Shown here: one piece after another, positions 13,615-36,174 of the stretch | Position numbering within the stretch: the stretch's first letter is position 1 | Layout: every line of letters starts with the position of its first letter | Origin: an uncultured Gammaproteobacteria bacterium | Lineage (GTDB): Bacteria > Patescibacteriota > Microgenomatia > Levybacterales > UBA12049 | NCBI GenBank assembly: GCA_964512695.1 | Contig: CAZEJU010000001.1 | Span: 7,803 to 71,802 of the forward strand | Length of the DNA: 64,000 nt | Reading direction: 5' to 3' | The notes under the pieces: generated by a model | What the model was told of the DNA's origin: nothing | Databases searched by the model: none | The model's input: only the letters and a program-made list of their open reading frames with translations | Position numbers and translations under genes: made by a program

Positions 13615-13618
13615 AGAA

Positions 13619-14057: not shown

Positions 14058-14085
14058 TGGAAAATGATACTTGGAAAATGGAAAA
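14058..14085. repeat. Right heptamer array (TGGAAAA-type) of the inverted-repeat pair
   Basis: TGGAAAA TGATACT TGGAAAA TGGAAAA. Nearly identical to 46162..46189. Confidence 0.8.
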
Positions 14086-14088
14086 TAA

Positions 14089-14874
14089 TTAGTGACAATA
14101 CCCCTTTTCACAAGCTGCTAATAATGTTCCTGTCGTATTGCCTCCATAATACCGTAAACCTTGTTCGACTCCACCATGTTTAGCAAGATAGTTTGCTGCA
14201 CCGTGGATGGCATCTACAGCATTATTAATATCAGCAATCCCGTCTCCATTTCCATCAACACCATAGGCATTCCATGTACCAGGCATAAATTGCAGAGGAC
14301 CTTGCGCGCCAGATCCTTGGGCATTATAAATAGCTCCATCACGTAAACCTGTTTCAGTTAAATGAAGGCCATAGAGAATTTGCCAAGGTACACCATATTT
14401 TTCCCCTGCTTGCTTATAAATTTCGTCATAGTTAGTTGGCTCACCCTGGGTAGGGAGAATAGGGGAGGGACTTGGGAGAGTCTCCACTTGCGTAATTTGT
14501 GCTGAAAAATTTGTTTTATCTTCTTTATTTGATGCTTTTATAGAATTTTTAAGCAAACTTGCTAGTTTATCTGCCGGTATTTTGGCAACCAGGAGTGGTT
14601 TTTGTAAGGTAATGATTATTTTACTTCCTTCTGGCAAAACATTTGGATTGTTTATTTGAGGGTTATCTAACCAAATGTTCGTCCAGTAATCTTTACTCCC
14701 ATAATACTGTTGGGCCAAATCAGTTATAGTTTGTTGGGAAGAAACAACAAACTCTACCTCTGTAGGATAAAAAATAACAGGATAGGTAAAAGCGTAATAG
14801 TTAGGCTGTGAAAATAACGAGAATATAAAATATCCAAGGGCAGCGAGGGTATTTCCTAATACACCTTGCGTCAT
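14089..14874 (-). CDS. LysM-domain lytic transglycosylase (SLT-like)
   Basis: LysM-like TITDLAQQYYGSKDYWTNIWLDNP..LPEGSKIII, and a C-terminal ..GPLQFMPGTWNAYGVDGNGDGIADINNAVDAIHGAANYL transglycosylase motif. Confidence 0.75.
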   Translation of the reverse strand: MTQGVLGNTLAALGYFIFSLFSQPNYYAFTYPVIFYPTEVEFVVSSQQTITDLAQQYYGSKDYWTNIWLDNPQINNPNVLPEGSKIIITLQKPLLVAKIPADKLASLLKNSIKASNKEDKTNFSAQITQVETLPSPSPILPTQGEPTNYDEIYKQAGEKYGVPWQILYGLHLTETGLRDGAIYNAQGSGAQGPLQFMPGTWNAYGVDGNGDGIADINNAVDAIHGAANYLAKHGGVEQGLRYYGGNTTGTLLAACEKGYCH

Positions 14875-15005
14875 AATTGGGGAAATTCAACTATAGTGAA
14901 TTTCTATCGTGGAATTTTAACAATGTTCTTCTATCCTGTCAATAAAACTAATGACATATTACGTGTTTCTTACCCTAATCCATGATGTATGACAAGAGAA
15001 CTAAG

Positions 15006-15078
15006 TGCCGAGGATGTGAGTTGAACACATATCTGATGTTCTTCAGACACCCGCCGTGACCACCTTGGCTACCTCGGC
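15006..15078 (-). tRNA. tRNA-Phe (anticodon GAA)
   Basis: Hand-folded: GCCGAGG/CCUCGGC acceptor, A73, anticodon loop CUGAAGA, T-arm AUGUG-UUCAACU-CACAU, large D-loop. Confidence 0.7.
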
Positions 15079-15219
15079 TAATCGAACGAAACTATTGAAA
15101 CTAAGCTGTAACTGCTCTTAACTTATCCTGTATCATATTATAGCAAACGCTAAACGCATAGTGTAGATTGAAATTAGCAAGATGTGGTAAGGAGATTTTA
15201 TGAATGATATACTTGAGTA

Positions 15220-16203
15220 ATGGAATTGAAGCGCTACGCAGGCAATCCAATCCTCACCAAAAATCCGAAAAATCATTGGGAAGCAGGATCAGTACTTAAC
15301 CCGAACGTTCTTTACGATAATGGACTGTTCCGAATGGTTTACAGGGCTACAAATGACATTAAAACCGATGAGGATGGAGGGTATGTTTCGTCCATTGGTT
15401 ATGCAGAAAGTATTGATGGAATCCACTTTACTCGCTTCCCTCAGCCTCTTTTAGCACCTGATAAAGAGTATGAACTTAACGGGGGATGCGAAGATGCACG
15501 CGTGACAAAAATTGGGGATACGTATTTTCTCTATTATACCGCTTGCCACGTCGATAACGGAAAATGGAAAGTAAGAATAGCTTTAGCGACTAGTAAAGAT
15601 TTTAAGAACTGGAAAAAGCATGGGATTGTTGGCCCGCAGCACACAAAGTCAAAAGCGGCATGTCTTTTTCCTGAAAAAATAAACGGTAAATACACAATGC
15701 TTTATACATGGAAATCCGACAGTCCACTTTCCTCAATTATGCTTGCGCAATTTGAGACTTTGCAAGAAGTAATAAAACCTCCAAAAGGATTTATGGCAGA
15801 CAATATTGACCATTATCAAGATAATGTTGTATTTGAACCTCCGAAACCAGTATATCGTGGGGCAGAGGTCGGAGCTGTACCAATAAAAACAAAGGATGGT
15901 TGGCTCTTTATTTATTGCAATGCCAATGTATCCAATCATCCAGAATGGACTATTAATGCAGCGCTTCTTGACGTACATGACCCACGAAAGATATTGGCAG
16001 AAACAGAAAAGCCTCTTCTCAGACCCGAAACAGAGACAGAATTGAAAGGTGTGGTAAATAATGTCACATTTCCTGAAGGTGCAGCAGTTGTTGGTGATGA
16101 GTTATATGTTTACTATGGAAGTGGAGATCAGGGATGCTGTCTTGCGACCTGTAGTTTCAGCGAACTCATGAAGTATCTTACCTCGCGGATTCCTCGAAAA
16201 TAA
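15220..16203 (+). CDS. GH130-family glycoside phosphorylase/hydrolase (DUF377)
   Basis: NPILT..WE.GSVLNPNVLYDNGLFRMVYRA.. and the overall five-bladed propeller pattern typical of GH130. Confidence 0.65.
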   Translation: MELKRYAGNPILTKNPKNHWEAGSVLNPNVLYDNGLFRMVYRATNDIKTDEDGGYVSSIGYAESIDGIHFTRFPQPLLAPDKEYELNGGCEDARVTKIGDTYFLYYTACHVDNGKWKVRIALATSKDFKNWKKHGIVGPQHTKSKAACLFPEKINGKYTMLYTWKSDSPLSSIMLAQFETLQEVIKPPKGFMADNIDHYQDNVVFEPPKPVYRGAEVGAVPIKTKDGWLFIYCNANVSNHPEWTINAALLDVHDPRKILAETEKPLLRPETETELKGVVNNVTFPEGAAVVGDELYVYYGSGDQGCCLATCSFSELMKYLTSRIPRK

Positions 16204-16407
16204 ATTTATGTGGTTACCGTTATCGCTCACTACAGCCGTTGTTCTCTCTACGTATTTCTTTCTTAATAAACAACAAATAAAAACTGTTTCAATCTACACC
16301 AGCTTCAGCAAAGAAAAAAGTCTGTTTACAATTATGCCTACAATAATGATTACAATTATGTGAATTGGAGAAAACTATGTGGGTAGCACGAACAAGTATG
16401 GTTATTG

Positions 16408-16481
16408 TGGACGATTAGGGACTTGAACCCCAGACCTCTTCAGTGTAAATGAAGCGCTCTAGCCAGCTGAGCTAATCGTCC
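16408..16481 (-). tRNA. tRNA-Val (anticodon UAC)
   Basis: GGACGAU/AUCGUCC acceptor, GCUCAGCUGGCUAGAGC D-arm, anticodon loop UUUACAC, T-loop UUCAAGU. Confidence 0.85.
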
Positions 16482-16485
16482 AGTG

Positions 16486-16569
16486 TGCGGATGAGAGGAC
16501 TCGAACCTCCACGCTTTTTACGGCACTACCACCTCAAGGTAGCGTGTATACCAATTTCACCACATCCGC
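16486..16569 (-). tRNA. tRNA-Leu (anticodon GAG), type II
   Basis: GCGGAUG/CAUCCGC acceptor, anticodon loop UUGAGGU, long variable arm GCCGUAAAAAGCGU. Confidence 0.8.
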
Positions 16570-16575
16570 GTAAAA

Positions 16576-16666
16576 GCAAATAGCCTATGGCTAATAGCTT
16601 ATGGTTTGAAAATTATACCAAAATCTTCTTCCGCAAGCTATTAGCTATATATCCTTAGCCATTTGC
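16576..16666. repeat. Heptamer-periodic inverted repeat in the tRNA-Leu/tRNA-Leu spacer
   Basis: GCAAATA GCCTATG GCTAATA GCTT (16576..16600) is the imperfect reverse complement of AAGCTAT TAGCTAT ATATCCT TAGCCAT TTGC (16635..16666). Confidence 0.65.
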
Positions 16667-16674
16667 TATTTTTG

Positions 16675-16756
16675 TGCCCTGAGGGAGACTCGAACTCCCA
16701 CGGCTTTCGCCACTACCTCCTGAAGATAGCGTGTATACCAATTTCACCATCAGGGC
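16675..16756 (-). tRNA. tRNA-Leu (anticodon CAG), type II
   Basis: GCCCUGA/UCAGGGC acceptor, anticodon loop UUCAGGA, variable arm GGCGAAAGCCGU. Confidence 0.8.
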
Positions 16757-16936
16757 AATTCTGGACTCATTCTAACAAATGGCTGTAGAGGAAACAACAG
16801 AAAGTATCATATGAAATTATAAACTAGTAAAAAATTCACAAAGAAGATATCGAAGCTTAATTTTTACAGAGTGCGTGTGATTACCTACAATAGCCATTCA
16901 ACTTGACATTCTCAACTGTATCTGTAAATATGAAGA

Positions 16937-17521
16937 TTGATGAGAAAGGTTATACTGCTCATAACGTTTTCAATAATCTCACCCTCGCTGTTGATCTTCA
17001 GCCTTTTATTCTATCTTTTTCTATCTTACCATGGAGATACAACAACGTACGCAAACGCCCGGAAGGCAGCTCTCACACGCACCTATGCAGCTTTACCTCG
17101 TAAAAACGCTATAACAACTGATTCTATTACTATCGAAGAGGGCAGAGTAGAAATAGTAAGGCAATTTTTAGCTAAATATAAATCTCCACTTGAGGAACAT
17201 GCAGCATTTATAGTAAAAATTGCTGATAAATACGGGTTAGATTTTAGGCTAATTCCCGCTATTTCCATGCAAGAATCAAATGCTTGCAAAAAAATTCCTA
17301 AAGATTCATATAACTGCTGGGGATTTGGCATATATGGAGGCAAAGTAACGAGGTTTACTGACTATCCTGAGGCTATTGAAATTGTTACAAAAACTTTAGC
17401 CACAAAATACAGAAAGAAGGGCCTAATAACCCCAGAAGAGATTATGACTATGTATACACCCTCAAGTCCGAATGGTAGTTGGGCAAAAGGCGTTTCGCAC
17501 TTCATGGAAGAACTCCAATAA
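16937..17521 (+). CDS. Secreted glucosaminidase-like peptidoglycan hydrolase (paralogue 1)
   Basis: N-terminal TM/signal. LIPAISMQESNACKK..NCWGFGIYGG resembles the glucosaminidase/FlgJ motif. Paralogous to 17737..18279. Confidence 0.4.
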   Translation: MMRKVILLITFSIISPSLLIFSLLFYLFLSYHGDTTTYANARKAALTRTYAALPRKNAITTDSITIEEGRVEIVRQFLAKYKSPLEEHAAFIVKIADKYGLDFRLIPAISMQESNACKKIPKDSYNCWGFGIYGGKVTRFTDYPEAIEIVTKTLATKYRKKGLITPEEIMTMYTPSSPNGSWAKGVSHFMEELQ

Positions 17522-17736
17522 CTTCTGTAGTCAATTTTTCAGCTATTTGCTTATTGCTTAGATACAGGCTAGCCAGATTGCAAGACTAACCACCTGATAT
17601 GCCTTAATCCTATAGCAAACTACTTGACAAACCTATAGTTTAGTGATACAATCCACATCATGTACCTCGGCTAAAACTCCAAACTTTTGGCTGGGGTATA
17701 TTTTTACCAATATTTTAAATACTATAAGATTAAATT

Positions 17737-18279
17737 ATGAAGATTTTTTTAACTTTATTATTCTTTATTTTTCTTTCTACAGTACCTGCTTATGCTGAGA
17801 CTACAGCAGGAGCTTCTGCTATGCTTGTTCCTCAAAATATACCTTTTAAACAGGCTGATAAGAGAATACAAGTACTCAAGTCATATTTTAAAAAATATAA
17901 TTCTCCTTTAGAAAATGACGCTTCAGTTTTCATCGAAGTTGCTGATAAATATGATATTGACTATAGGATTTTACCGGCTATCGCTGGAGTAGAATCTGGT
18001 TTTGGAAAATTCATTCCATATAACTCTTTTAATGGTTGGGGATGGGGTATTTATGGTGGTAAAGTAACATATTTCTCATCATGGGAAGAAGCGATTCAAA
18101 CCATCTCTAAAGAATTACGGGAACGATATATGGATAAATGGGGAGCAAAAAATGTCTATGATATTGGTAAATATTATGCTTCAGATCCAGCATGGGCATA
18201 TAAAGTAAATAGGTTTATGGAAGATATTGAGAACTTTGCGCAGGAAAAAGAAGACAAAGCTATTTCCATTTCTATCTAA
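17737..18279 (+). CDS. Secreted glucosaminidase-like peptidoglycan hydrolase (paralogue 2)
   Basis: Signal peptide (..VPAYAET). ILPAIAGVESGFGKF..NGWGWGIYGG is colinear with the upstream paralogue. Confidence 0.4.
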   Translation: MKIFLTLLFFIFLSTVPAYAETTAGASAMLVPQNIPFKQADKRIQVLKSYFKKYNSPLENDASVFIEVADKYDIDYRILPAIAGVESGFGKFIPYNSFNGWGWGIYGGKVTYFSSWEEAIQTISKELRERYMDKWGAKNVYDIGKYYASDPAWAYKVNRFMEDIENFAQEKEDKAISISI

Positions 18280-18309
18280 ATAGATTATAATTAGCTAAAC
18301 TGTCTATGC

Positions 18310-18392
18310 GCGGATGTGGTGGAATGGTAGACACGTAAGGTTTAGGACCTTATGGCCGCAAGGCTGTGGAGGTTCAAGTCCTCTCATCCGCA
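18310..18392 (+). tRNA. tRNA-Leu (anticodon UAG), type II
   Basis: GCGGAUG/CAUCCGC acceptor, anticodon loop UUUAGGA, variable arm GGCCGCAAGGCUGU. Confidence 0.85.
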
Positions 18393-24684: not shown

Positions 24685-24794
24685 ATTCGACACTACAGAA
24701 ATAACATTTATGGGAATTAAGATTACCATATTAAAAAATAACAGAAAAATACCTCAATGCCTGGACTAAAGGAATCTCGCATTACCGGCTATTA

Positions 24795-25107
24795 TTGACA
24801 AGCTCAGGCTGATAAGGTAAAGTATGGAAAGAATCAAGAGTGATGGGGAGACCCCAGTCTGATCTTCCTTTTCGCCTTAGTAGATTTCTACTTCGGCTTA
24901 AAGAGCGATCTTACCGGGGCGGGAGTTTTGGCTTCATGATCCATCCGGCAACCCTTCGGTAAGTTCAAACAATGCTTGAACAACGAGCAGGGTGCCAAAC
25001 CCAACCCAAGAGATGTGCTACCGAGTACATCTTCGTAAAGGAGGATTTGATCCTGAGACAATCGAAGGATAAACTATGTATTACCTCTCTTTACGAGAGG
25101 TTTTTTT
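24795..25107 (+). promoter_or_regulatory. Promoter plus S-box (SAM-I)-like riboswitch with extra insert, antiterminator and terminator
   Basis: TTGACA(24795)-17-TAAAGT. S-box-like strings AUCAAGAG (24833), GGGAGUUUUGGCUUCAUGAUCCAUCCGGCAACC (24921..53), GGUGCCAAACCC (24991), AAGAGAUG (25008). UUUGGC (24927) is complementary to GCCAAA (24994), like the SAM-I pseudoknot. Terminator ACCUCUC-uuuac-GAGAGGU + U7 (25083..25107). GUAAAGGAGG (25035) can pair with CCUCUCUUUAC as an antiterminator. Confidence 0.5.
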
Positions 25108-25113
25108 ATTTAT

Positions 25114-26868
25114 ATGGCTAAAGAAGGTGAAATAAAAGGCACATATCAGTTTAGTATAGATGGCCCTCAGCTGACCAGTGACGATATACAGAGGAAGTTC
25201 CCTGGTGTCAAAAATAATGGTCATCTCGGAAAGACTGGTGTAGTACTACATGATACAGCAATTCCTATCGCAGCTATCCGACATCCTCGACTTATACCTA
25301 CGCGGTTAGATGGAATTATACCTGTGTTTGGTGGCCCCCAAACACACAGTAAAATAGAGCATATCCGTATCCGACCAGCTGGTGGCTCAGAAGCGAAAAG
25401 AATAGCAAAAGCAGTCCGTGGAACAACCCCAACACTCGGACCAGAAGCAGAAGCATTTGTACATAACAGAAGAACAGGCAGACTTGTACCTACATTTAAA
25501 GGAAAACAAATTGAAACACAAAAAGCACTGAGAGAAGATGCACTTGGACATACGGGATCGCTTGAAGAACACATCGTAGCATCTGCTAAATTTACAGTTT
25601 TTAGAGCTAATCAAGAGCGCAGACGAGGACGTATCGCAGTTGAAACAAGTGTTCCTATAACCTATGGTGAAGGTAAAGATGCTCGAGATAGTGAAGGTCT
25701 CGCAGGTAGTGAAAATCCATATATTGTGGCTATGACACATCTGTTCCCTGAAAATATGCTCCCTACAGAGAAGCTTGATCCACAAGTTGCAAGCGTTTTA
25801 AATCAATACGCTCTTCGCCATGGGTTTGCGACTATTTCTGATATGACCAGCGCTCTCGGTCTTAACCGCACCTGGCACATGGCTGCAAGCCATCTGAGTC
25901 TTGGTCTACCGCAGGAACAACAACCAGATGGGAAATATATTACTTCTACTGAGATCGCGATAGGAGTTATGAATGTATTTATGAGTGACCTTAATATTTC
26001 GCATATGTTTACTCATGGAACACCTATGCTAGGCGGACAATTAGTAGATGTTCCAGCACGAAATCGTCAATCAGAACATGTGGCCTCAAATCAACCGTTA
26101 CGGGATGTACGACTTGGTGCATTTAAGCATATGTTAGGCACTGCTTATCCTGGCCCGCTTATCGCGAATGAAGAAGATCTCTATGATCGCTGGAGAAAGA
26201 TTGTTATTCCAGGGAAAGCCGCGACTGTAGATCGAGCATCGGCAATTAGTATAGCACCAAATGGAGAAATCTATGCCTCAATGCATGCACGGGCTCGTCT
26301 TCGTGTGGGAGGTGATCCCACAAAACAAACTGTACGAGTCGAATCAGTAGGAGATAGCGCTACACCTTCACGCTACGACTTAATAGCGCGTGACGCGTAT
26401 CTAGTAATGTTATGGAACGGTGCTATGGAGGCAATGGCAAAAGGAAAAACCCCACAAGATTTCTGGGGGGGAAATTATCCAGCAATAACTGACTGGAAAA
26501 AGCAGCAGGAAGCGACATTAGGATTTTCTGTTAATGGACCAGCGAATAGGGAAGCACATGTGCTGATTGAACAAAACCTGGGGTTTTTACGTGATATGAA
26601 AGCTCTCCAACCTACATTAGGTACGTACATCGATTATGTAACAGCACGTATTCGTAATTTTAGTAGACCGACAAAAGCACACACACTCGATGAGTATACA
26701 ACAGATCCATCAGGTAGCATAAGCGAGGTAATTCGACGCATGAAAGAAACCGGATATAAAGATGATGAAATCGTGCGAGCTATTGACACACATCAAACTG
26801 CAGTATCACGAAGAGTTGTTCAAGTTCATGGAGATTTTAAAGCGCTTCTACAAGATGTACAAAAGTAA
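25114..26868 (+). CDS. GCS2 / glutamine-synthetase-fold carboxylate-amine ligase-like protein, paralogue A (584 aa)
   Basis: Shares family landmarks with the other paralogues: GRIAVETSV (G-x-E-x-E-type strand), AASHLSLGLPQ, MHARARLRVGGDPTKQTVRVESVGDSA (R-x-R...E...D, compare HWxxRxx...xExRxxD of GCS2/YbdK). Confidence 0.55.
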   Translation: MAKEGEIKGTYQFSIDGPQLTSDDIQRKFPGVKNNGHLGKTGVVLHDTAIPIAAIRHPRLIPTRLDGIIPVFGGPQTHSKIEHIRIRPAGGSEAKRIAKAVRGTTPTLGPEAEAFVHNRRTGRLVPTFKGKQIETQKALREDALGHTGSLEEHIVASAKFTVFRANQERRRGRIAVETSVPITYGEGKDARDSEGLAGSENPYIVAMTHLFPENMLPTEKLDPQVASVLNQYALRHGFATISDMTSALGLNRTWHMAASHLSLGLPQEQQPDGKYITSTEIAIGVMNVFMSDLNISHMFTHGTPMLGGQLVDVPARNRQSEHVASNQPLRDVRLGAFKHMLGTAYPGPLIANEEDLYDRWRKIVIPGKAATVDRASAISIAPNGEIYASMHARARLRVGGDPTKQTVRVESVGDSATPSRYDLIARDAYLVMLWNGAMEAMAKGKTPQDFWGGNYPAITDWKKQQEATLGFSVNGPANREAHVLIEQNLGFLRDMKALQPTLGTYIDYVTARIRNFSRPTKAHTLDEYTTDPSGSISEVIRRMKETGYKDDEIVRAIDTHQTAVSRRVVQVHGDFKALLQDVQK

Positions 26869-27021: not shown

Positions 27022-28503
27022 ATGTCCCGAATACACGAATTACCAAGTATCCATACACTCTCTTCTACTGATGCTCAAAGATATTGGGATAAGTTACATC
27101 CAATAAAAGTTGTATCTCATGAGAGACCCCTGCAATACGGACATCCAGTTGAAATTCCTCCTAAACTCGCAGGAACTATTGGCAGATCAGCAAATCTCAT
27201 GGAAGAAATTGCGATAGATAGCATTATGCAACAAGGGGCCACTACATGGCTTGGAAATAATGCGGCTTCTTTCGCAGGTGATAGTCTTAACATACAAGAA
27301 ATCAACCACCAGCTCGAAGGTAGGCTTCTTCAAGGCTATCGATTACCTATTAGTTACGATGGAATGATAACAGTCTTTCGTGGAAGACCACATTATACAG
27401 TAGTGGAAGCACAATCTCTAGTTGCTCATGGCCCATGGATTCGGTCTATGCTTCAAGCAGCAGATAAAGATCCAGATGATCCATCATCATGGCAAGGGAA
27501 AGAAAATCCTACCCTCGTAGTTCAACAAATGAAAGACAATTTCGCGAAGGGTGAAGTTATAACAGTATTAGATACCACTCCACTTTCAGGTCCATTTATT
27601 CATGAACAAGTGGGTCTAGCGAAAGCATTAGGAACATCGGGAAGCGTGCCTATTTCTGCGCTTGATATCCAATTTAATCCTGAAATAGGTTATTTTCATT
27701 ACGGTTATGCAGTTGATACTAGAGGCTACCCTATACCAAATGGAAACGGCTTTTTAAGAACATCCGACCGAATACCAATCCGGCATGTGTTAAGCCGTAT
27801 GACGCAACCTGATCTGGATCATTTATACAATCTGGTCCGCGGTAACCCCCAACAAAGTGAACTTATACTCAAGTTCTTACGAGATGAAAAGATTAATTGG
27901 ATCTGGCATCCAGCATGGCAGTCCCTCATCGATAAATCGAGATTACCATATATCTGTAAAAAACTGGAAGAAAGACAAGAAAACGTAACACGCAATCAAT
28001 TTGTTCCGATTTTCGTAGCCGGTGAAACTCCACCCCTAGGAACGTATGTGCGTAAACCCGTAAGCAGCGTCCAAGGTGAAGGAGTAACAATTGTGCAAGT
28101 TAATGGCGTACCTCAACAAGTCGAAGAAGGCACAGTATACCAAAAGTATTTTTACCCGTATCCGTTTTCCATTCCCTTAGACGCAGAAATAGCACGGCAA
28201 TTTCCTGTAACACCCCATGCTCCCAGAAATGTCGCGTCTGGCTTCCAGGAACATTTCGGTTGGGGACAAACCACAACGCCTGCTAGTCTAGAATTATGTT
28301 ATATGGTGCCACCTTGGTGTAAAGGAGAACTTACGGGATATTTTATAGGGAGAGTAGCACCCAGGTATACAGGACCAGATTCAAGAAACATAACCCAAAC
28401 AAACCTCTCAAAAGCGCAAGCTGCGATGTACGAATATATCCGAGATCAGGATCATTGGAAAACACCCTTCGGCTTTTCCCCTGTAACTCTTCAAAAGACT
28501 TAA
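27022..28503 (+). CDS. ATP-grasp-like ligase (glutathionylspermidine-synthase-like flavour), 493 aa
   Basis: IWHPAWQSLIDKSRLPYI (compare the W..l.nKa.l..L motif of GspS-type pre-ATP-grasp proteins) and YVRKPVSSVQGEGVTIV (K-P-x-x-x-x-x-G-x-G-V ATP-grasp strand). Own TTGAAT-18-TACAAT promoter-like signal at 26982..27011. Confidence 0.45.
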   Translation: MSRIHELPSIHTLSSTDAQRYWDKLHPIKVVSHERPLQYGHPVEIPPKLAGTIGRSANLMEEIAIDSIMQQGATTWLGNNAASFAGDSLNIQEINHQLEGRLLQGYRLPISYDGMITVFRGRPHYTVVEAQSLVAHGPWIRSMLQAADKDPDDPSSWQGKENPTLVVQQMKDNFAKGEVITVLDTTPLSGPFIHEQVGLAKALGTSGSVPISALDIQFNPEIGYFHYGYAVDTRGYPIPNGNGFLRTSDRIPIRHVLSRMTQPDLDHLYNLVRGNPQQSELILKFLRDEKINWIWHPAWQSLIDKSRLPYICKKLEERQENVTRNQFVPIFVAGETPPLGTYVRKPVSSVQGEGVTIVQVNGVPQQVEEGTVYQKYFYPYPFSIPLDAEIARQFPVTPHAPRNVASGFQEHFGWGQTTTPASLELCYMVPPWCKGELTGYFIGRVAPRYTGPDSRNITQTNLSKAQAAMYEYIRDQDHWKTPFGFSPVTLQKT

Positions 28504-28528
28504 GCACACATACTCTTAAGTTTAAATA

Positions 28529-28675
28529 TTGACAATTTATAATTGATCTGGTAAGATTATAAGACAAATATGCAACATACGTTTAATTCTATTATTGTCG
28601 TCCTTCTCGTTACCCATTAATTGGGCGGAGGACTCGTGTTAAAAAACGTACCCGCTCAAAGAAGCGGGTTTTTTT
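28529..28675 (+). promoter_or_regulatory. Promoter plus Ile/Val/Leu-codon leader-peptide attenuator
   Basis: TTGACA(28529)-17-TAAGAT. Leader ORF 28570..28620 = MQHTFNSIIVVLLVTH (7 consecutive I/V/L codons). UUGGGCGG (28621) pairs with CCGCUCAA (28652) as antiterminator, versus terminator ACCCGCU-caaaga-AGCGGGU + U7 (28650..28675). Confidence 0.75.
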
Positions 28676-28696
28676 ATGTTTTAAAAGGAGAAATAT

Positions 28697-30556
28697 ATGA
28701 GTTCACATAAAGAATATGCAGGGCAAGCTGCTCTCAAATCCTTAGCTGAAAGATATATTAGAAGGTATGGCTTAAAAGCTGATTTTAATCCCGAAGAGAC
28801 AGGTGGAGTAATTTTCGCTCAAGACGGTACACCACTAAGGCAAGTCCGTGCTCCTTTCTGGAGAGCAGAAAAAGGTGCAAAGGGAACAGGCAGAAAAGAT
28901 ATGCCTAGAGTTTACACTGCTACAAATCCTGACCCGGATAAACCTAACTCAGGATTAGAATTAGAATTCCAAGCTTTCCATGCCATGACAGGAGAAATGG
29001 AACCAGTCATGGATGCAGACCACCCAGTACATCAGGGGTTATTGGAACACAATCGAAAAGCAAAAAATGGACACACTGAAAATAATGGAAATGGACTTGG
29101 AAACGGAAATGGGGTTAATGGATATGTTTTTGTAGAAGACGGCGCTGACTGGGACCATGACTTCCCAACTGGACCTAAAGAAGTAGGATTTAGCCCAGAG
29201 CTAACACGTCATACTTTGGAGGAAAACTTTCCTCCGAATGTAGATTCCGGAACACGAAACAGAGAGACATTATATGGTATTAGCACAGTTGTACAATTAG
29301 CAGAAGCAAATAACACACTTATCTCTCCGTTCTCGACTATACCGCATCGAGATATTACACAAATTGATACGAATCAACATCCATATGTCCAACGCATAGC
29401 GTTCGAACACATGGGTCCCGAAAAAGTTAAACACTTTACAGGTACTTCACTGCAAATTCACGTAGAAATCAAGGATTTAGAGTCAGCTTTACACGCTGCA
29501 AACCGTTGGCAGCTAGTTACACCTATTATGTATGCGGGAACACTTTCAGCACCTTTTATCGCAGGAGAAATAACACCCGATTTACAAGAACGGTATGGTC
29601 AAGTTCCCGACGTGGTTGGCGATCCACTAAAAGAAAGCACATTTGATACTATGACACAAGGACCCCATGAATCATATAGATATTATGGTAGATTAATAGG
29701 ATCACCTTCTGGAGGTGCAATGAGACAGCCTCTACCTGAAACATCTGAAGAATTTTGGTCTGCGGCTAATAATCTTCTAAAATCAGGAGAAAGTCCTTCC
29801 GTGGGTAGAGTAGCAGGACACCATGCAGATTTTCGTATTCGCCCTGACTTGGGACCGTATGGCACAATCGAGTTAGCAGTATTAGATACTGCCGGTGCGC
29901 GCATTCCAAATATCGTAGCCATTCAAGAATTCTCCAGAGCTTTGGGTTGGAAGTTACAGAGACAAGCAGGTAATTGGGAACAAATTATGGAAGATCCTCG
30001 TTTTAAATCGATATTCGGGCAAGCACCTTCTAAGGAAACATTCGAGACTGTTCACTGGAATACTATAGAGGTAGCAAAACATGGAAATAAGGCAATGATT
30101 ACTGGTATGGACGGAGAACAGCATTCTATAGCAGAGTTATGGAGTAAGTTAGTGGAATATGTACAAGAACCTATTGAAGAAACCGGTTATACTGGTTTAC
30201 CGGAAGGTATTATCGAGGTATTAGATAAAGCTTATCAAGACCCATCAGAACTATTTGATGTTTATAAAGACGAAAAAGGAGTTACTTCTGTCAAAGGATT
30301 CTATGAAACCGGAGTCGGAACTATGAGCCAGTGGGCCAGACAACGTGCAGAAGAGTTGAAAGCAAGAGGCTTAGCAGAAAAAGAAGCCATTATCGATACT
30401 ACACTTAATGTAGGCAAAAGCTTTCATGAACATGTAAAGTCAATGACACCCAAAGATCTTAATACTTTATATGTAAGCGCTAACAAGGATGTGGATAAAT
30501 CACCCCAATACAGCGCTAATGGTCAGAATCCATCATACCAAACCACTGCGTCCTAA
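28697..30556 (+). CDS. GCS2-fold carboxylate-amine ligase-like protein, paralogue B (619 aa)
   Basis: SGLELEFQAF, GTSLQIHVEIKD, GHHADFRIRPDLGPYGTIELAVLDTA (close to the GCS2 HWDVRP...T(I/V)E(V/L)RV.D signature). AAAGGAG SD 6 nt upstream. Confidence 0.65.
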   Translation: MSSHKEYAGQAALKSLAERYIRRYGLKADFNPEETGGVIFAQDGTPLRQVRAPFWRAEKGAKGTGRKDMPRVYTATNPDPDKPNSGLELEFQAFHAMTGEMEPVMDADHPVHQGLLEHNRKAKNGHTENNGNGLGNGNGVNGYVFVEDGADWDHDFPTGPKEVGFSPELTRHTLEENFPPNVDSGTRNRETLYGISTVVQLAEANNTLISPFSTIPHRDITQIDTNQHPYVQRIAFEHMGPEKVKHFTGTSLQIHVEIKDLESALHAANRWQLVTPIMYAGTLSAPFIAGEITPDLQERYGQVPDVVGDPLKESTFDTMTQGPHESYRYYGRLIGSPSGGAMRQPLPETSEEFWSAANNLLKSGESPSVGRVAGHHADFRIRPDLGPYGTIELAVLDTAGARIPNIVAIQEFSRALGWKLQRQAGNWEQIMEDPRFKSIFGQAPSKETFETVHWNTIEVAKHGNKAMITGMDGEQHSIAELWSKLVEYVQEPIEETGYTGLPEGIIEVLDKAYQDPSELFDVYKDEKGVTSVKGFYETGVGTMSQWARQRAEELKARGLAEKEAIIDTTLNVGKSFHEHVKSMTPKDLNTLYVSANKDVDKSPQYSANGQNPSYQTTAS

Positions 30557-30590
30557 CAAGTATCAACTATTGTTGTGATACAATAACAAC

Positions 30591-31676
30591 ATGATTCAAC
30601 AAGAAAGGCTTCTAAAAACATTCTTCGATCTTGTTTCAATCGATAGTCCTACAGGTGAAGAAGAACGCATTCGTAACGAACTCTCAAATCGTTTGAAAAA
30701 ACTTGGCGCTGAAACAGTGGAAAAAGATACCTATGGTAACCTCATAGCGAAATTCCATGGTGAAGGTGAACCGCTCATGATTAACTGCCATATGGACACT
30801 GTAGAGCCCGGTAGAGGCATAGTACCAATTATGAAAGGTGATAGAGTAGAAACCGACGGGAAGACAATTCTAGCGGGTGATGCAAAGGCAGGTTTAGCGA
30901 TTATCCTCGAAGCCTTAACTTCACTAAAAGAAGAAAATAAAAAACATGTACCTATCGAAATCGTCTTTACTGTAGAGGAGGAAACTGGACTTTATGGAGC
31001 TGTTAACCTCGACTATTCAAAAGTCTCCGCAAAAAAAGGATTTGTTTTTGATGGTTCAAAAGATCCTTGTACCTTAACCACATCAGCACCGGGATATTAT
31101 AGAGTCGATGTTACAATCATAGGAAGAGCGGCTCATGCGGGAGCCGAACCTGAAAAAGGTATTTCAGCTATTAAAATCGCTTCTGATATTATTACGAAGC
31201 TCGAGGTAGGCAGAATTGATGAAGAAACTACGGCAAACGTCGGTATTATAGAAGGCGGAAGCGCCCGGAATGCAGTACCAGAAAAAGCACATTTTAAGGC
31301 AGAAATTCGAAGTAGAAAGCTAGAAAAGCTTGAAAAACATGCAGGTCATTTCCAAGAAGTTTTTGAGGAAGCGATGAAGAAACATCCTGAAGCGAAAATA
31401 GAGATAGACATGCATTTAGAATTTAATCCATATATTTTCGATGAAAACCATCATGTTATTCAGCTTGCGAGTAAAGCGTTAAGCGAACTAGGACAAACAC
31501 CGAAACTTGCACCTTCGAATGGAGGATCCGATGTCAATATTTTTATTTCACACGATATAGAAACAGTGGCTGTAGGAATTGGCGATTATAATGCTCATAC
31601 AACCCGCGAATACGTCGTCATATCTGAAATAGTGTTAGGAGCTAGACTCTGCGAAAAACTCCTTGAGGCGAAGTAA
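30591..31676 (+). CDS. M20-family metallopeptidase (peptidase T / tripeptidase-like)
   Basis: SPTGEE, CHMDTVEPG, LAGDAKAGLA, EEETGLYGA, RAAHAGAEPEKGISA: M20 metal-ligand motifs. 34 nt after paralogue B, so likely the same operon. Confidence 0.75.
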   Translation: MIQQERLLKTFFDLVSIDSPTGEEERIRNELSNRLKKLGAETVEKDTYGNLIAKFHGEGEPLMINCHMDTVEPGRGIVPIMKGDRVETDGKTILAGDAKAGLAIILEALTSLKEENKKHVPIEIVFTVEEETGLYGAVNLDYSKVSAKKGFVFDGSKDPCTLTTSAPGYYRVDVTIIGRAAHAGAEPEKGISAIKIASDIITKLEVGRIDEETTANVGIIEGGSARNAVPEKAHFKAEIRSRKLEKLEKHAGHFQEVFEEAMKKHPEAKIEIDMHLEFNPYIFDENHHVIQLASKALSELGQTPKLAPSNGGSDVNIFISHDIETVAVGIGDYNAHTTREYVVISEIVLGARLCEKLLEAK

Positions 31677-31759
31677 ATTGGTATATTGCTAAACTGCTAA
31701 TTGTTACGTGAGAGTAACCATACAACAATACCCATATCAATAAATTTTCGCTACAAAAA

Positions 31760-32107
31760 TTGACACGTCATTAACCTCATGGTAGAATTACTATAACATA
31801 CGAATAACAGCGTTGATCCAGTATGGATGGGACTGGGGATTCTCCTTCATTAAAGTTACGCAAGGAGAGCGCTGGGTCTAATCAACCCCGGAGGCGAAAC
31901 CGTAAAAAGATCAGCAACATGTGTCATAGCTGCAGATAAGCACTGATTAAAAGCTGATTCTCGCTGATATAGAGCATGTCATGAATGAGAAGTCCTCCCA
32001 CGCCAAAGCTCCGGAGGATAAAACAAGGTGGCACCGTCCTTAAATAAACGTGGGACCCTTGTAAATAACTACAAAGTAATTTTGTGGTTGTTTACAAGGG
32101 TTTTTTT
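31760..32107 (+). promoter_or_regulatory. Promoter plus T-box-like leader (antiterminator bulge UGGC; specifier not resolved)
   Basis: TTGACA(31760)-17-TAGAAT. ACAAGG-UGGCACC-GUCC..GGAC-CCUUGU (32023..32062) is a T-box-type antiterminator with a 7-nt bulge. Its 3' strand is shared with a 14-bp terminator CCCUUGUAAAUAAC/GUUGUUUACAAGGG + U7 (32056..32107). Confidence 0.6.
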
Positions 32108-32108
32108 A

Positions 32109-33269
32109 ATGGTAAAAACTATGAAAGAAGGAGTTATTATACAAGTTGATCCGAGAATACCAGAGCCATATATAACATATATCCGGCAACGAAATGGGAA
32201 TGTCGGCAGAGATATAGCAGATCACCTTGGCCTACCCTATGTAGGAGACAGTCAGGGAGTACAACGTGCAGCTGATTATTATCCTGTACTTGCCAGAACT
32301 GTCACCAGAGAACATGCAAGAGTATTAGGTGCAGAAAATACAAGAGATTTCTATGGTCTTGCAGTTGAAGATTTAAATGTTGTGGGTAAATCTATACTCC
32401 ATCCTTCTATAAGCAGAAGACATCCTTTATTTCATAGAGAACAATTCGCACGAAAAGTCTTAGGTCAAACCCTTCCTGGTATAACCGGTTTCTCTAAAGA
32501 AGATTTATTAGCAGGGTATGAAAATGGTTACGCTGGATCACTGGATCATGCTTTAGATTACGAGCAGTATGGATTACGTGTTAAACTTCCAAATGAATCC
32601 GACGGCGTAGGACAATTTACTATACAAAGCAAGGATGATCTGGTTACTCTTCTAGAAGCTATTGAGGATAAAGATATCCACGAACAAGGACTGGTTCTGG
32701 AAGCTGATGTACAGAAACCTGAGACTATATCAGTCGGATTCGCGAGAATCGGTGATGAACAATTAAGTTTCATAGCCCAACAAAAAGATGCACGTGTGTT
32801 AGTAGATCATAAGGGCAAAACAATAGAGCAGAATAGATATGGTGGGGCATACGTCGTTGTGGCAAAAGGCCCTTTACAGTTACTATGCCAAGCCACGGAA
32901 GCAACTTCGCGTGAGAGATCTGCTGTAGAAAAAACACTGGCGTTTCATGAAGCCTATCAACGCATCTATGATCCTTTAGCTTCGAGATTAAGTTTCGATG
33001 TCATTTTCGGAGAAGGGAAAAACGGTCTCCCACTTGCAGGAATAAGTGACATTACTGGTAGGCTAGGTGGAACGTGTCCAGCACTCATGCAAGCTGCTGA
33101 AGAGTTCAGGAAAAACCCTTCTATTCAAATGGTAGGAACAGAAGTATCTCTTAATTATACTCCCCATGTACGATTTCCCTATGAAGATGAAGCTAAGGTG
33201 TATGTAGACCACCCAACACTCAGACTTACAGCAAGAGTAAACTCAAAACACAGAAGACTCGCAGCATAG
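32109..33269 (+). CDS. ATP-grasp-like protein (386 aa from the ATG at 32109)
   Basis: GLRVKLPNESDGVGQFTIQSKDDLVTLLE.. and ..GLVLEADVQKPETISVGFARIG.. fit ATP-grasp central-domain strands. I rejected the ORF-track start (32028) because it overlaps the leader terminator. Confidence 0.4.
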   Translation: MVKTMKEGVIIQVDPRIPEPYITYIRQRNGNVGRDIADHLGLPYVGDSQGVQRAADYYPVLARTVTREHARVLGAENTRDFYGLAVEDLNVVGKSILHPSISRRHPLFHREQFARKVLGQTLPGITGFSKEDLLAGYENGYAGSLDHALDYEQYGLRVKLPNESDGVGQFTIQSKDDLVTLLEAIEDKDIHEQGLVLEADVQKPETISVGFARIGDEQLSFIAQQKDARVLVDHKGKTIEQNRYGGAYVVVAKGPLQLLCQATEATSRERSAVEKTLAFHEAYQRIYDPLASRLSFDVIFGEGKNGLPLAGISDITGRLGGTCPALMQAAEEFRKNPSIQMVGTEVSLNYTPHVRFPYEDEAKVYVDHPTLRLTARVNSKHRRLAA

Positions 33270-36100: not shown

Positions 36101-36174
36101 TGGGGCCAAGTGGACTTGAACCACTGACCTTTTCAATGTCAATGAAACGCTCTAGCCAACTGAGCTATGGCCCC
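36101..36174 (-). tRNA. tRNA-Val (anticodon GAC)
   Basis: GGGGCCA/UGGCCCC acceptor, A73, D-arm GCUCAGUUGGCUAGAGC, anticodon loop UUGACAU, T-loop UUCAAGU. Confidence 0.85.

What the first reader, a model, noticed from the sequence alone, without database searches (positions are those of the whole stretch)
24795..25113. S-box/SAM-I-like riboswitch with a large insert, controlling a ligase-like gene rather than a Met/Cys biosynthesis gene
- The leader contains strings that match the conserved SAM-I core: AUCAAGAG, GGGAG..UUUGGC..AUGA..CCGGCAACC, GGUGCCAAA.CC and AAGAGAUG.
- P2-loop UUUGGC is complementary to J3/4 GCCAAA. This is an extended version of the known UGGC:GCCA pseudoknot.
- The expression platform fits the S-box logic: GUAAAGGAGG can pair with the terminator 5' arm.
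- It is unusual in three ways:
  - About 75 nt is inserted after the first AAGAG, including a second AAAGAGCGAUC copy.
  - P4 is doubtful.
  - The regulated gene is the 584-aa GCS2-fold paralogue.
- The terminator 3' arm (GAGAGG) is also the only SD-like element for the gene.
Basis: partly seen in the sequence, partly recalled or inferred. Interest (0 to 1): 0.6.

Follow-up and report, generated by a model that had tools for sequence, protein, structure and literature searches.

The report
SAM-I riboswitch with inserted P2 arm
This leader is a genuine S-box (SAM-I) riboswitch that standard databases miss because a 73-base extra hairpin sits in one of its arms, and it probably switches off an orphan ligase-type enzyme gene when S-adenosylmethionine is plentiful.

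Summary
Rfam finds no SAM-clan hit in the leader at any threshold.

A metagenome pattern scan recovered eight sister RNAs, and Rfam certifies four of them as SAM-I. A covariance model built only from six sisters matches the window end to end: 24829-25049, 54 bits, E about 2e-12. It places inserts of 81 nt in P2, 24 nt in P3 and 30 nt in P4. With the block 24852-24924 removed, the 5' core is 50/54 identical to a certified SAM-I. Covariation supports the helices.

The extra arm is a stable hairpin. [quoted passage not shown] The antiterminator and terminator follow S-box logic.

The regulated 584-aa protein has a glutamate-cysteine ligase/YbdK fold. Its rare family sits next to ahcY, metK and a homocysteine methyltransferase.

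Three details needed correcting:
- The pseudoknot is UUGG:CCAA.
- "AAGAGAUG" lies in a dispensable P4 hairpin.
- P1 is GAAUC:GAUUU.

Verdict: a new structural variant of a known class, of moderate interest.

The parts
24795..24823 (+). Promoter-like site: TTGACA, 17-nt spacer, TAAAGT. Sequence conservation with L001 begins just downstream, at about 24831.
   Evidence: 10 of 12 consensus matches; alignment with L001. Consensus match only; function not shown.
24831..24835 (+). P1 5' strand, GAAUC. It pairs with 25044-25048.
   Evidence: Model alignment; all five pairs are standard or G-U.
24836..24839 (+). J1/2, AAGA, part of the conserved AUCAAGAG box.
   Evidence: aligns with the invariant caAGAG of RF00162.
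24840..24849 (+). P2a 5' strand (G24840 and GAUGG 24842-46), followed by the non-bulged K-turn strand GGA (24847-49).
24850..24922 (+). Inserted arm with its linkers. It is an irregular hairpin made of CCCC 24852-55 with GGGG 24916-19, GAUC 24861-64 with GAUC 24907-10, CUUU 24868-71 with AAAG 24900-03, GCC 24874-76 with GGC 24895-97, and AGUAG 24879-83 with CUACU 24888-92. Its 3' part (AAAGAGCGAUC..GGGGCGGGAG) resembles a partial duplicate of the 5' half of the aptamer.
   Evidence: -27.7 kcal/mol, z = -3.9; same architecture in L001. (two compensatory pairs in the apical stem between window and L001). (81-nt insert relative to the sisters). (no other copy in 588 kb).
24923..24934 (+). P2b (the C-helix): GAG 24923-25 with CUU 24932-34, with loop UUUUGG 24926-31. 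Within the loop, UUGG (24928-31) is the 5' half of the pseudoknot.
   Evidence: P2b covaries among the sisters (GAG:CUC, AUG:CAU, CAGG:CCUG).
24935..24946 (+). Bulged K-turn strand CAU-GA-U (24935-40), then the P2a 3' strand CCAUCC (24941-46).
24947..24995 (+). J2/3 and P3. GC 24948-49 pairs with GC 24994-95, A24950 is bulged, and ACCCU 24951-55 pairs with AGGGU 24989-93. A long extension ends in the hairpin 24963-24981.
   Evidence: One search shows a compensatory U:A to C:G change in the apical hairpin between window and L001.
24996..25004 (+). J3/4, CAAAC (24996-25000), then the pseudoknot 3' half CCAA (25001-04).
   Evidence: CCAA aligns with the consensus CCug and UUGG with cuGG. PMC3064774 places the pseudoknot in the 3' part of J3/4.
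25005..25041 (+). P4. Its base is CC 25005-06 paired with GG 25040-41. It carries an inserted 10-bp hairpin (25010-19 with 25024-33) that L001 lacks; P4 in L001 is CC-GUAA-GG.
25042..25048 (+). J4/1 (AG), then the P1 3' strand GAUUU (25044-48).
25032..25044 (+). Antiterminator 5' strand, UUCGUAAAGGAGG. It overlaps the P4 3' strand, J4/1 and the first base of the P1 3' strand, and pairs with 25084-25097 when the aptamer is not closed.
   Evidence: free platform -20.0 kcal/mol in the antiterminator form. The same arrangement occurs in L054, L052, L051 and, in a run cut before its terminator, L056.
25050..25070 (+). Spacer hairpin: AUCCU 25050-54 with AGGAU 25066-70. Its position between aptamer and terminator is conserved in the sisters.
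25083..25107 (+). Intrinsic terminator: ACCUCUC-UUUAC-GAGAGGU followed by U7. It ends 6 nt before the start codon.
25114..26868 (+). Regulated gene. It encodes a 584-aa orphan protein with a glutamate-cysteine ligase/YbdK-type carboxylate-amine ligase fold. Downstream lie genes of 493 aa, 619 aa (weakly YbdK-like), an M20 peptidase and a DUF3182 protein.

Best explanation
The leader at 24831-25107 is a SAM-I (S-box) riboswitch that acts by transcription termination.

The aptamer (24831-25048, 218 nt) keeps the complete S-box core:
- P1 is GAAUC paired with GAUUU.
- J1/2 is AAGA(G).
- P2 has the K-turn nucleotides GGA on one strand and CAU-GA-U on the other.
- The P2 loop UUGG forms the pseudoknot with CCAA in J3/4.
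- The GGCAACC and GGUGCC pocket lies in P3.
- P4 is present.

It differs from ordinary S-boxes in three ways. [quoted passage not shown] This turns the kink into a three-way junction with k-junction topology. P3 is extended, and P4 carries an extra hairpin.

Proposed mechanism, inferred by homology and not shown experimentally. When SAM is bound, P1 and P4 are closed and hold the strand UUCGUAAAGGAGG. The terminator (25083-25101 plus U7) then forms, and transcription stops 6 nt before the gene. Without SAM, that strand pairs with the 5' arm of the terminator and the polymerase reads through into the 584-aa ligase-fold gene, and probably into the genes after it.

Shown here: homology to certified SAM-I RNAs, covariation, and the alternative pairings with their energies. 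Inferred: SAM binding, the direction of regulation, and the three-dimensional shape of the junction.
For: - No Rfam hit in the leader. A pattern scan nevertheless found eight sister RNAs, and Rfam scores four of them as RF00162 at 45-57 bits against a gathering score of 44.4 (alignment).
- Model R1, built from six sisters only, hits window 24829-25049 over model positions 1-103 with 54.4 bits and E = 2.3e-12. The inserts are 81, 24 and 30 nt.
- With 24852-24924 removed, the 5' core is 50/54 identical to the certified L056 aptamer. The J3/4 block is identical to those of L053 and L049.
- Covariation on 12 sequences: 94% of cells paired, against 28-49% in slid controls; 11 pairs changed on both sides; 0 of 500 shuffles reach this.
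- All 23 modelled pairs are standard or G-U in the window.
- The leader is about 90% identical between window and L001 from about 24831 onward, while the proteins are 67% identical. There are compensatory changes in the inserted arm and in P3.
- The inserted arm is a stable hairpin in both sequences.
- Platform energies: antiterminator -20.0 kcal/mol, against -16.2 for spacer hairpin plus terminator when the P1 3' strand is held. L054, L052 and L051 show the same free/held switch.
- Gene context ties the locus to the SAM cycle: an ahcY fragment upstream in L001 with a decayed remnant in the window, a homocysteine S-methyltransferase downstream in L001, metK downstream in L002, and a gene with a SAM hydroxide adenosyltransferase domain upstream in the window.
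Against: - RF00162, RF00634 and RF01725 give no hit even at E <= 10 on 156 nt.
- The S-box secondary structure of the aptamer (-67.5 kcal/mol) lies 10.5 kcal/mol above the unconstrained MFE (-78.0). That MFE uses pairings that are disrupted in L001, and the calculation ignores the pseudoknot, the K-turn and the ligand.
- Only two sequences carry the insert, so its structure rests on two compensatory pairs.
- The pseudoknot is invariant within the lineage, so covariation inside the lineage cannot test it.
- P1 is short (5 bp, one of them G-U).
- An insertion at the K-turn might impair the kink that the pseudoknot needs.
- No binding or termination experiment exists.
Confidence: 0.85

Rival explanations
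1. The aptamer is a decayed S-box. The insertion destroyed ligand sensing, and the leader now acts only as a constitutive or otherwise controlled terminator.
For: - The insert sits at the K-turn, which is needed for the pseudoknot (PMC3064774).
- The Rfam models fail.
- The MFE of the aptamer is not the S-box fold.
Against: - Every conserved core nucleotide and all 23 modelled pairs are intact.
- The leader is more conserved than the protein it precedes between window and L001.
- The differences in the stems are compensatory.
- The insert itself is conserved as a hairpin in both sequences.

A dead aptamer would not be held this tightly.
Confidence: 0.07
2. The inserted arm is a functional module of its own. 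It could be a second input (a site for a protein or another ligand), or part of the switch. Its 5' strand AUCUUCCUUU (24862-71) is complementary to the antiterminator strand AAAGGAGGAU (25037-46), so it could act as an extra anti-antiterminator.
For: - The whole-leader MFE in the window uses this 10-11 bp pairing.
- The arm is long and conserved.
- It contains a partial copy of the aptamer's 5' half, which model R1 even prefers when aligning L001.
Against: - In L001 the complementarity is interrupted: a C to A change plus a deleted A, read directly. The MFE of L001 keeps the arm as a local hairpin.
- No Rfam family matches the arm.
- J1/2 of the second copy lacks the conserved AAGAG.
- The arm would fold locally during transcription, before the 3' partner is made.
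Confidence: 0.2
3. The aptamer senses a relative of SAM (SAH or another adenosyl-sulfur compound) rather than SAM. This would fit its unusual regulon and the neighbouring ahcY.
For: - This lineage controls non-canonical genes: a methyltransferase, a Fic-domain protein, small unknown proteins and ligase-fold enzymes.
- There is an ahcY fragment or remnant upstream.
Against: - The pocket positions that align with RF00162's invariant nucleotides are unchanged: the AUC/GAU of P1, J1/2 AAGAG, GGCAACC and GGUGCC.
- Four sisters pass the SAM-I gathering threshold.
- SAM-I discriminates against SAH through P1 U carbonyls (established knowledge), and those U residues are retained.
Confidence: 0.07
4. 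The resemblance to SAM-I is chance, and the region is some other structured RNA or only a terminator.
For: No Rfam hit.
Against: - E = 2e-12 full-length match to a model of certified relatives.
- 50/54 identity once the insert is removed.
- 0 of 100 shuffles contain the core string pair.
Confidence: 0.01

Closest known systems
SAM-I / S-box riboswitch (Rfam RF00162), transcription-termination type
   Same: - The order of P1-P4 around a four-way junction.
- The conserved boxes AUCAAGAG, GGCAACC, GGUGCC-A-A and (A)GGAU.
- The K-turn nucleotides in P2.
- A pseudoknot between the P2 loop and J3/4.
- An antiterminator that shares the P4/P1 3' strand, followed by an intrinsic terminator.
- Direct sequence homology to certified members.
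   Different: [quoted passage not shown]
- P3 is extended by about 24 nt.
- P4 has a 2-bp base and carries a 10-bp hairpin.
- P1 is only 5 bp.
- The pseudoknot is UUGG:CCAA rather than the consensus CUGG:CCAG.
- RF00162 does not detect it.
- The regulated gene is an orphan ligase-fold enzyme.
The insert-free sister S-boxes of Patescibacteria (L047, L049, L051-L056; L059 from a Patescibacteria MAG, L061 from Candidatus Curtissbacteria)
   Same: - A near-identical core: AAUCAAGAG(U/A)GAUGGGGAGAG..UUGGC..GAUCCAUCCGGCAACC..GGUGCCA(A/C)ACCCAACC..AGGAUU.
- A spacer hairpin and a terminator.
- Non-canonical regulated genes.
   Different: - None has the P2 insert.
- Only L053 shares the long P3 that begins CCCUUCG.
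- Their downstream genes have clear Shine-Dalgarno sequences, whereas the window and L001 genes do not.
k-junction (TPP riboswitches of Arabidopsis and E. coli; DUF-3268 RNA)
   Same: The topology. [quoted passage not shown] In the two insert-bearing RNAs L1 is C, which could pair with G24850 next to A1n. L1 is paired in known k-junctions. The nine insert-free sisters have G, U or A at L1.
   Different: - Linkers of 2 and 3 nt flank the third helix.
- The three-dimensional fold has not been tested.
- In the papers read, known k-junctions are those of TPP riboswitches and DUF-3268, and none in a SAM-I riboswitch is mentioned.
SAM-I/IV (RF01725) and SAM-IV (RF00634)
   Same: A related SAM pocket (the GGCAACC and GGUGC elements). 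In L001 P4 is reduced to CC-GUAA-GG.
   Different: Here P4 still lies inside the junction, between J3/4 and the P1 3' strand. The K-turn nucleotides are present. Neither model gives a hit.
Glutamate-cysteine ligase / YbdK (GCS2) carboxylate-amine ligases (for the regulated protein)
   Same: The fold. Foldseek gives probability 1.00 to GshA (1v4g, 2d32) and YbdK (1r8g, 1tt4), with TM-scores of 0.67-0.70 on the YbdK length. Invariant G-x-E-x-E, Glu, His and Arg positions fit a ligase of this type (inference).
   Different: - No Pfam, NCBIfam or PDB sequence match.
- hhalign against the YbdK-like 619-aa neighbour gives 2.3% probability.
- It is about 200 residues longer than YbdK, with a helical C-terminal domain.
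- The substrate is unknown.

Membership tests
SAM-I / S-box riboswitch (RF00162) | Four helices, P1-P4, around one junction, in the canonical order, with P4 between J3/4 and the P1 3' strand. | tested here: met
   Global alignment to model R1 over positions 1-103. All 23 modelled pairs form in the window.
SAM-I / S-box riboswitch (RF00162) | Conserved junction and pocket nucleotides: AUC-AAGAG, GGCAACC, GGUGCC-A(A), and GAU in the P1 3' strand. | tested here: met
   Rfam consensus line against sister L054; 50/54 and 19/19 identity blocks.
SAM-I / S-box riboswitch (RF00162) | Score at or above Rfam's gathering threshold of 44.4 bits. | tested here: not met
   No hit at the gathering threshold, nor at E <= 10 on 551 nt or 156 nt. 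Four sisters pass with 45-57 bits. This criterion is operational. The failure is attributed to inserts of 81, 24 and 30 nt, but a rescan with the insert deleted could not be run.
SAM-I / S-box riboswitch (RF00162) | Helices supported by compensatory changes among homologues. | tested here: met
   94% paired, 11 pairs changed on both sides, 0 of 500 shuffles, slid controls 28-49%. The alignment was fitted to the model, which favours the structure.
SAM-I / S-box riboswitch (RF00162) | K-turn in P2: a 3-nt bulge followed by tandem sheared G.A pairs. | tested here: inconclusive
   The nucleotides are present: GGA at 24847-49 opposite CAU-GA-U at 24935-40. The non-bulged strand is interrupted by the inserted arm immediately after A1n, so whether it kinks cannot be judged from sequence.
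SAM-I / S-box riboswitch (RF00162) | Pseudoknot between the P2 loop and the 3' part of J3/4. | tested here: met
   UUGG 24928-31 is complementary to CCAA 25001-04. These align with the consensus cuGG and CCug, so both sides have changed relative to the family consensus. The pairing is invariant within the lineage, which gives no internal covariation.
SAM-I / S-box riboswitch (RF00162) | Expression platform in which the P1/P4 3' strand alternates between the aptamer and an antiterminator that competes with an intrinsic terminator. | tested here: met
SAM-I / S-box riboswitch (RF00162) | Selective binding of S-adenosylmethionine. | not testable with these tools
   Requires in-line probing, ITC or a termination assay.
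SAM-I / S-box riboswitch (RF00162) | Association with sulfur, methionine or SAM metabolism genes. | tested here: inconclusive
   The regulated gene has unknown function. Its family neighbours ahcY, a homocysteine S-methyltransferase and metK. The window has a gene with a SAM hydroxide adenosyltransferase domain upstream.
SAM-I/IV (RF01725) and SAM-IV (RF00634) | No P4 inside the junction, and a P4 hairpin 3' of P1 (with a second pseudoknot in SAM-IV). | tested here: not met
   P4 lies between J3/4 and the P1 3' strand. Neither Rfam model gives a hit.
k-junction | A third helix inserted in the non-bulged strand of a K-turn, opposite the loop, with the G.A pairs retained. | tested here: met
   Sequence topology only. 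The arm 24852-24919 enters 2 nt after A1n (A24849). The G.A nucleotides are retained. The definition comes from PMC4005666 and PMC10573300.
k-junction | Kinked three-dimensional geometry with coaxial C and T helices and the cross-strand A-minor hydrogen bonds. | not testable with these tools
   Needs FRET, crystallography or cryo-EM.
Glutamate-cysteine ligase / YbdK (GCS2) superfamily (regulated protein) | The carboxylate-amine ligase fold. | tested here: met
   AlphaFold2 model with a 34-sequence alignment, pLDDT 93.3. Foldseek against PDB puts GshA and YbdK on top, with probability 1.00 and E about 1e-6.
Glutamate-cysteine ligase / YbdK (GCS2) superfamily (regulated protein) | Sequence-level membership (Pfam or NCBIfam GCS2/YbdK models). 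| tested here: not met
   No Pfam or NCBIfam hit. No PDB sequence hit with the family profile. hhalign against the YbdK-like neighbour gives 2.3%.

The most novel reading that the evidence does not exclude
The inserted arm converts the SAM-I K-turn into a genuine k-junction. This would be the first riboswitch class seen with both forms: a simple K-turn in the sisters and a k-junction in the window and L001. It would offer a natural before-and-after pair showing how a K-turn evolves into a three-way junction without loss of ligand sensing. The riboswitch would also point to a role in methionine or SAM metabolism for an orphan ligase family found almost only in uncultured bacteria.
Probability: 0.3. 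Interest if true: 0.6.

Novelty: new variant of a known kind. Interest (0 to 1): 0.42.

Why it matters
1. Annotation. This is a real riboswitch that the standard Rfam model cannot see. The whole sub-lineage, whose only copies among 185,579 species-representative genomes lie in two Patescibacteria MAGs, sits at or below the gathering threshold. S-box regulons in these organisms are therefore under-annotated.

2. RNA structure. If the aptamer still binds SAM, it shows that the P2 K-turn tolerates a roughly 70-nt helix in its non-bulged strand, and possibly becomes a k-junction. The insert-free sisters serve as natural controls.

3. Gene function. Three independent regulatory or contextual clues tie an extremely rare ligase-fold family to methionine and SAM supply. 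The family has six close members among 5.8 billion proteins and about 79 distant ones.
   - An S-box precedes the gene in two loci.
   - A Met-Met-Met leader ORF with an attenuator-like structure precedes it in two others.
   - It sits next to ahcY, metK and a homocysteine methyltransferase.
   Together these give a testable lead for an enzyme with no annotation.

Tried and rejected
- **Rfam at three sensitivities**: no SAM-clan hit.
- **Protein-guided search for homologous leaders.** The first genome scan found nothing. Two searches of 5.8 billion proteins returned only six family members, which yielded one homologous leader (L001).
- **An 18-base pattern in viral contigs:** 41 hits, all chance. 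Two further viral scans were empty.
- **Chance hits in the larger scans.** L048 and L050 in the metagenome scan, and five of the seven genome hits, are GC-rich coding DNA.
- **The whole-leader MFE and the 10-bp stem CUUACCGGGG with CCUUCGGUAAG**. Rejected because L001 breaks the stem with two adjacent mismatches.
Rejected because the hairpin that contains it is absent from L001.
- **The pseudoknot UUUGGC:GCCAAA.** Rejected because the GC closes P3, the As correspond to the triple-forming J3/4 adenosines, and one pair is lost in the sequences that read GCCACA (PMC3064774).
- **The second copy (24900-25) as the working 5' half.** Rejected because it lacks the AAGAG J1/2 and the GGA of the K-turn, although model R1 prefers it in L001.
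- **A leader peptide in the window leader.** The AUG at 24936 is GCG in L001.
- **The insert as a repeat or mobile element:** no other copy in 588 kb.
- **AlphaFold with six sequences:** pLDDT 48, unusable.
- **BLASTP and hhalign between the 584-aa protein and its neighbours:** not significant.
- **Source organism:** could not be named.
Full report
**1. The observation**

A sigma-70-like promoter lies at 24795-24823, and an intrinsic terminator at 25083-25101 is followed by seven U residues, ending 6 nt before the ATG at 25114. The string pair GGCAACC..GGTGCCAA occurs once in the window and in none of 100 shuffles. The leader folds better than its shuffles (z = -3.6).

**2. The Rfam test fails**

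cmscan against all 4227 families, which include RF00162, RF00634 and RF01725, gives no hit in the leader in any of three runs:
- at the gathering threshold
- at E <= 10 on 551 nt
- at E <= 10 on the 156-nt core

**3. Homologous leaders through the protein**

The 584-aa product has no Pfam or NCBIfam match. It has only five relatives among 5.8 billion proteins, even when searched with a profile.

The contigs of these relatives show three kinds of leader:
- L001 (protein 67% identical) has a clearly homologous leader, about 90% identical from 24831 onward.
- L002 and L003 have a different, small leader.
- L004 and L005 have no structured leader.

It differs by compensatory changes in the apex of the extra arm and in the P3 apical hairpin.

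**4. Sister RNAs through a DNA pattern**

An 18-base pattern gave only chance hits in viral contigs. I then scanned with a 23-base pattern that joins the P2 3' strand, J2/3, a P3-sized gap and J3/4.

In JGI metagenomes this recovered eight true relatives and two chance hits. In GTDB genomes it recovered two true relatives, a Patescibacteria MAG and a Candidatus Curtissbacteria MAG, and five chance hits.

The relatives share this layout, followed by a spacer hairpin and a terminator:

AAUCAAGAG(U/A)GAUGGGGAGAG - loop ..UUGG - CUC - GAU-GA-U - CCAUCC - GGCAACC - P3 - GGUGCCA(A/C)ACCCAACC - P4 (CCC..GGG) - AGGAUU

Rfam scores four of them as RF00162 at 45-57 bits, against a gathering score of 44.4 (alignment). 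Two complete relatives, L049 and L055, fall below the threshold. The lineage is thus borderline for the Rfam model even without any insert.

**5. Direct homology test**

I built covariance model R1 from six sisters, with the S-box structure written explicitly and without the window or L001.
- R1 matches window 24829-25049 over all 103 model positions at 54.4 bits, E = 2.3e-12.
- It opens an 81-nt insert inside P2, 24 nt in P3 and 30 nt in P4.
- This is the only hit in the 64-kb window.
- With the block 24852-24924 removed, the 5' core is 50/54 identical to the certified L056 aptamer.
- The J3/4 block AGGGUGCCAAACCCAACCC is identical to those of L053 and L049.

On the model-based alignment of 12 sequences:
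- 94% of cells pair, against 28-49% when partners are slid.
- Eleven pairs change on both sides.
- No shuffle out of 500 reaches the observed values.

The alignment was fitted to the model, which favours the structure. All 23 modelled pairs are standard or G-U in the window.

**6. Anatomy in the window**

| Element | Coordinates and sequence |
|---|---|
| P1 | GAAUC 24831-35 with GAUUU 25044-48 |
| J1/2 | AAGA(G) 24836-40 |
| P2a | GAUGG 24842-46 with CCAUC 24941-45, plus G24840:C24946 |
| K-turn | GGA 24847-49 opposite CAU-GA-U 24935-40 |
| C-helix (P2b) | GAG 24923-25 with CUU 24932-34 |
| P2 loop | UUUUGG 24926-31 |
| P3 | GC/A/ACCCU 24948-55 with AGGGU/GC 24989-95, plus a long extension |
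| J3/4 | CAAAC 24996-25000 |
| Pseudoknot | UUGG 24928-31 with CCAA 25001-04 |
| P4 | CC 25005-06 with GG 25040-41, carrying the 10-bp hairpin 25010-33 |

Rfam's own alignment of sister L054 shows that UUGG corresponds to the consensus cuGG and CCAA to the consensus CCug. PMC3064774 places the pseudoknot in the 3' part of J3/4, after two adenosines that form base triples with P2.

**7. The insert**

The region 24850-24922 folds into an irregular hairpin made of CCCC:GGGG, GAUC:GAUC, CUUU:AAAG, GCC:GGC and AGUAG:CUACU. Its energy is -27.7 kcal/mol (z = -3.9), and L001 folds to the same architecture. It has no other copy in 588 kb of fetched DNA.

Its 3' part (AAAGAGCGAUC...GGGGCGGGAG) looks like a diverged duplicate of the 5' half of the aptamer. 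Model R1 even prefers this copy in L001. However, the copy lacks the AAGAG of J1/2 and the GGA of the K-turn, so the first copy is the functional one (inference).

The arm enters the non-bulged strand two nucleotides after A1n, opposite the K-turn loop. [quoted passage not shown] In those papers the known k-junctions are in TPP riboswitches and the DUF-3268 RNA, and no k-junction in a SAM-I riboswitch is mentioned.

In the two insert-bearing RNAs L1 is C, which could pair with G24850. The insert-free sisters have G, U or A at L1. The topological match is shown here. The three-dimensional fold is not.

**8. Expression platform**

With the P4/P1 3' strand free, UUCGUAAAGGAGG (25032-44) pairs with 25084-97, the 5' arm of the terminator, at -20.0 kcal/mol. 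With that strand held, the spacer hairpin 25050-70 and the terminator form at -16.2 kcal/mol. L054, L052 and L051 show the same free/held switch. This is the classical S-box off-switch.

SAM binding itself is inferred from the unchanged pocket nucleotides.

The S-box fold of the aptamer lies 10.5 kcal/mol above the secondary-structure MFE. That MFE relies on two long pairings that L001 disrupts. It also ignores the pseudoknot, the K-turn and the ligand.

**9. The regulated gene**

A shallow alignment gave an unusable model (pLDDT 48). A full profile search found 79 distant relatives. A 34-sequence alignment then gave a confident model, with pLDDT 93.3 and pTM 0.94.

The best PDB matches of this model are gamma-glutamylcysteine synthetases and YbdK, with probability 1.00 and TM-scores of 0.67-0.70 on the YbdK length. 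The "GCS2-fold" description therefore holds at fold level. No sequence method supports it.

The family is tied to the SAM cycle in several ways:
- L001 has an ahcY C-terminal fragment upstream (PF05221, E = 5e-4) and a homocysteine S-methyltransferase downstream.
- The window keeps a decayed remnant of that ahcY end at about 24710-24790. It also has a gene with a SAM hydroxide adenosyltransferase domain upstream.
- L002 has metK downstream, preceded by its own divergent S-box.
- L002 and L003 carry a leader with a 16-codon ORF that starts Met-Met-Met and overlaps attenuator-like alternative hairpins.

Parts of the downstream cluster recur in the other loci: the 493-aa gene, the weakly YbdK-like 619-aa gene and a DUF3182 gene.

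**10. Verdict**

The leader is a SAM-I riboswitch by descent and by architecture.

It is a new structural variant of a known class. A large arm at the K-turn hides it from Rfam. It lies in a little-studied lineage whose other members in reference genomes are Patescibacteria, and it controls an orphan ligase-fold enzyme.

Interest is moderate. The mechanism is conventional. The junction, and the functional lead for the enzyme family, are the parts worth following up.

Noticed in passing
L002 500-628 (ORF 530-580) and L003 700-828 (ORF 731-781): A second, small leader precedes two other members of the ligase family. It has a promoter and a 16-codon ORF that starts Met-Met-Met (MMMATFLWEACRFTKK*, MMMQTFLGEACCFIKQ*). 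It also has alternative hairpins of the 1:2, 2:3 and 3:4 type, a terminator, and compensatory changes in an outer stem (GCGACA/UGUCGC against ACAACA/UGUUGU). It has no meaningful Rfam match. It is a candidate methionine leader-peptide attenuator or a small unknown riboswitch.
   Followed up: partly
L002 2439-2564: A divergent S-box-like element (UUAUCAAGAG...GACAACC...GGUGCCAU...AAGAUAAG) lies just upstream of metK. Lineage model R1 found it (30 bits, E about 1e-5), but Rfam did not report it at E <= 1.
   Followed up: partly
window 24710-24790: The intergenic DNA upstream of the riboswitch promoter is a decayed, frame-shifted remnant of the 3' end of an S-adenosylhomocysteine hydrolase gene. 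It aligns with the intact gene end in L001 1-113.
   Followed up: yes
window 24953-24960 with 25061-25068: RNAalifold proposes an 8-bp long-range helix between the P3 5' strand (CCUUCGGU) and the 3' side of the spacer hairpin (AUCGAAGG). It has one compensatory change in L001 (U:A to C:G). It would compete with P3. With only two sequences this may be chance.
   Followed up: partly
window 24861-24871 with 25037-25047: The 5' strand of the inserted arm (GAUCUUCCUUU) is complementary to the antiterminator and P1 3' strand (AAAGGAGGAUU) over 10-11 bp. The window's MFE uses this pairing. In L001 the complementarity is interrupted.
   Followed up: partly
window 41323-43107: A second, distant paralogue (594 aa, about 25-28% identical to the family members in L001-L005) of the ligase-fold family lies 14 kb downstream. 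Model R1 finds no S-box in front of it.
   Followed up: partly
window 27022-33269; L005 3781-10150; L001 4467-6023: The genes after the regulated one recur beside other family members: the 493-aa gene (similar to L001 518 aa), the 619-aa gene with weak YbdK/GCS2 similarity (similar to L005 589 aa) and the 413-aa DUF3182 gene (similar to L005 359 aa). Together with an M20 peptidase this looks like a small pathway for forming or cleaving amide bonds.
   Followed up: partly
L056 5314-5430 and 6583-6692: One metagenomic contig carries a SAM-I/IV riboswitch (RF01725, 52.6 bits) before a 369-aa ORF. About 1.2 kb further on it carries a SAM-I of the lineage studied here, before a 134-aa unknown ORF. 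Two SAM classes sit side by side.
   Followed up: no
L047, L049, L051, L052, L054, L055, L056 (genes downstream of the sister S-boxes): The sister riboswitches control a class-I methyltransferase, a Fic-domain protein and several small proteins with no Pfam match, rather than classical Met or Cys biosynthesis genes.
   Followed up: partly
window 25046-25055: UUUGAUCCUG in the leader is, from my own knowledge, the same 10-mer as the conserved 5' end of 16S rRNA (the 27F primer site), and AAGGAGG sits just before it. This is probably chance.
   Followed up: no
window 10721-18392 and 36101-36174: There are eight tRNA genes in the window, seven of them within about 8 kb. Many protein genes here lack an obvious Shine-Dalgarno sequence.
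   Followed up: no
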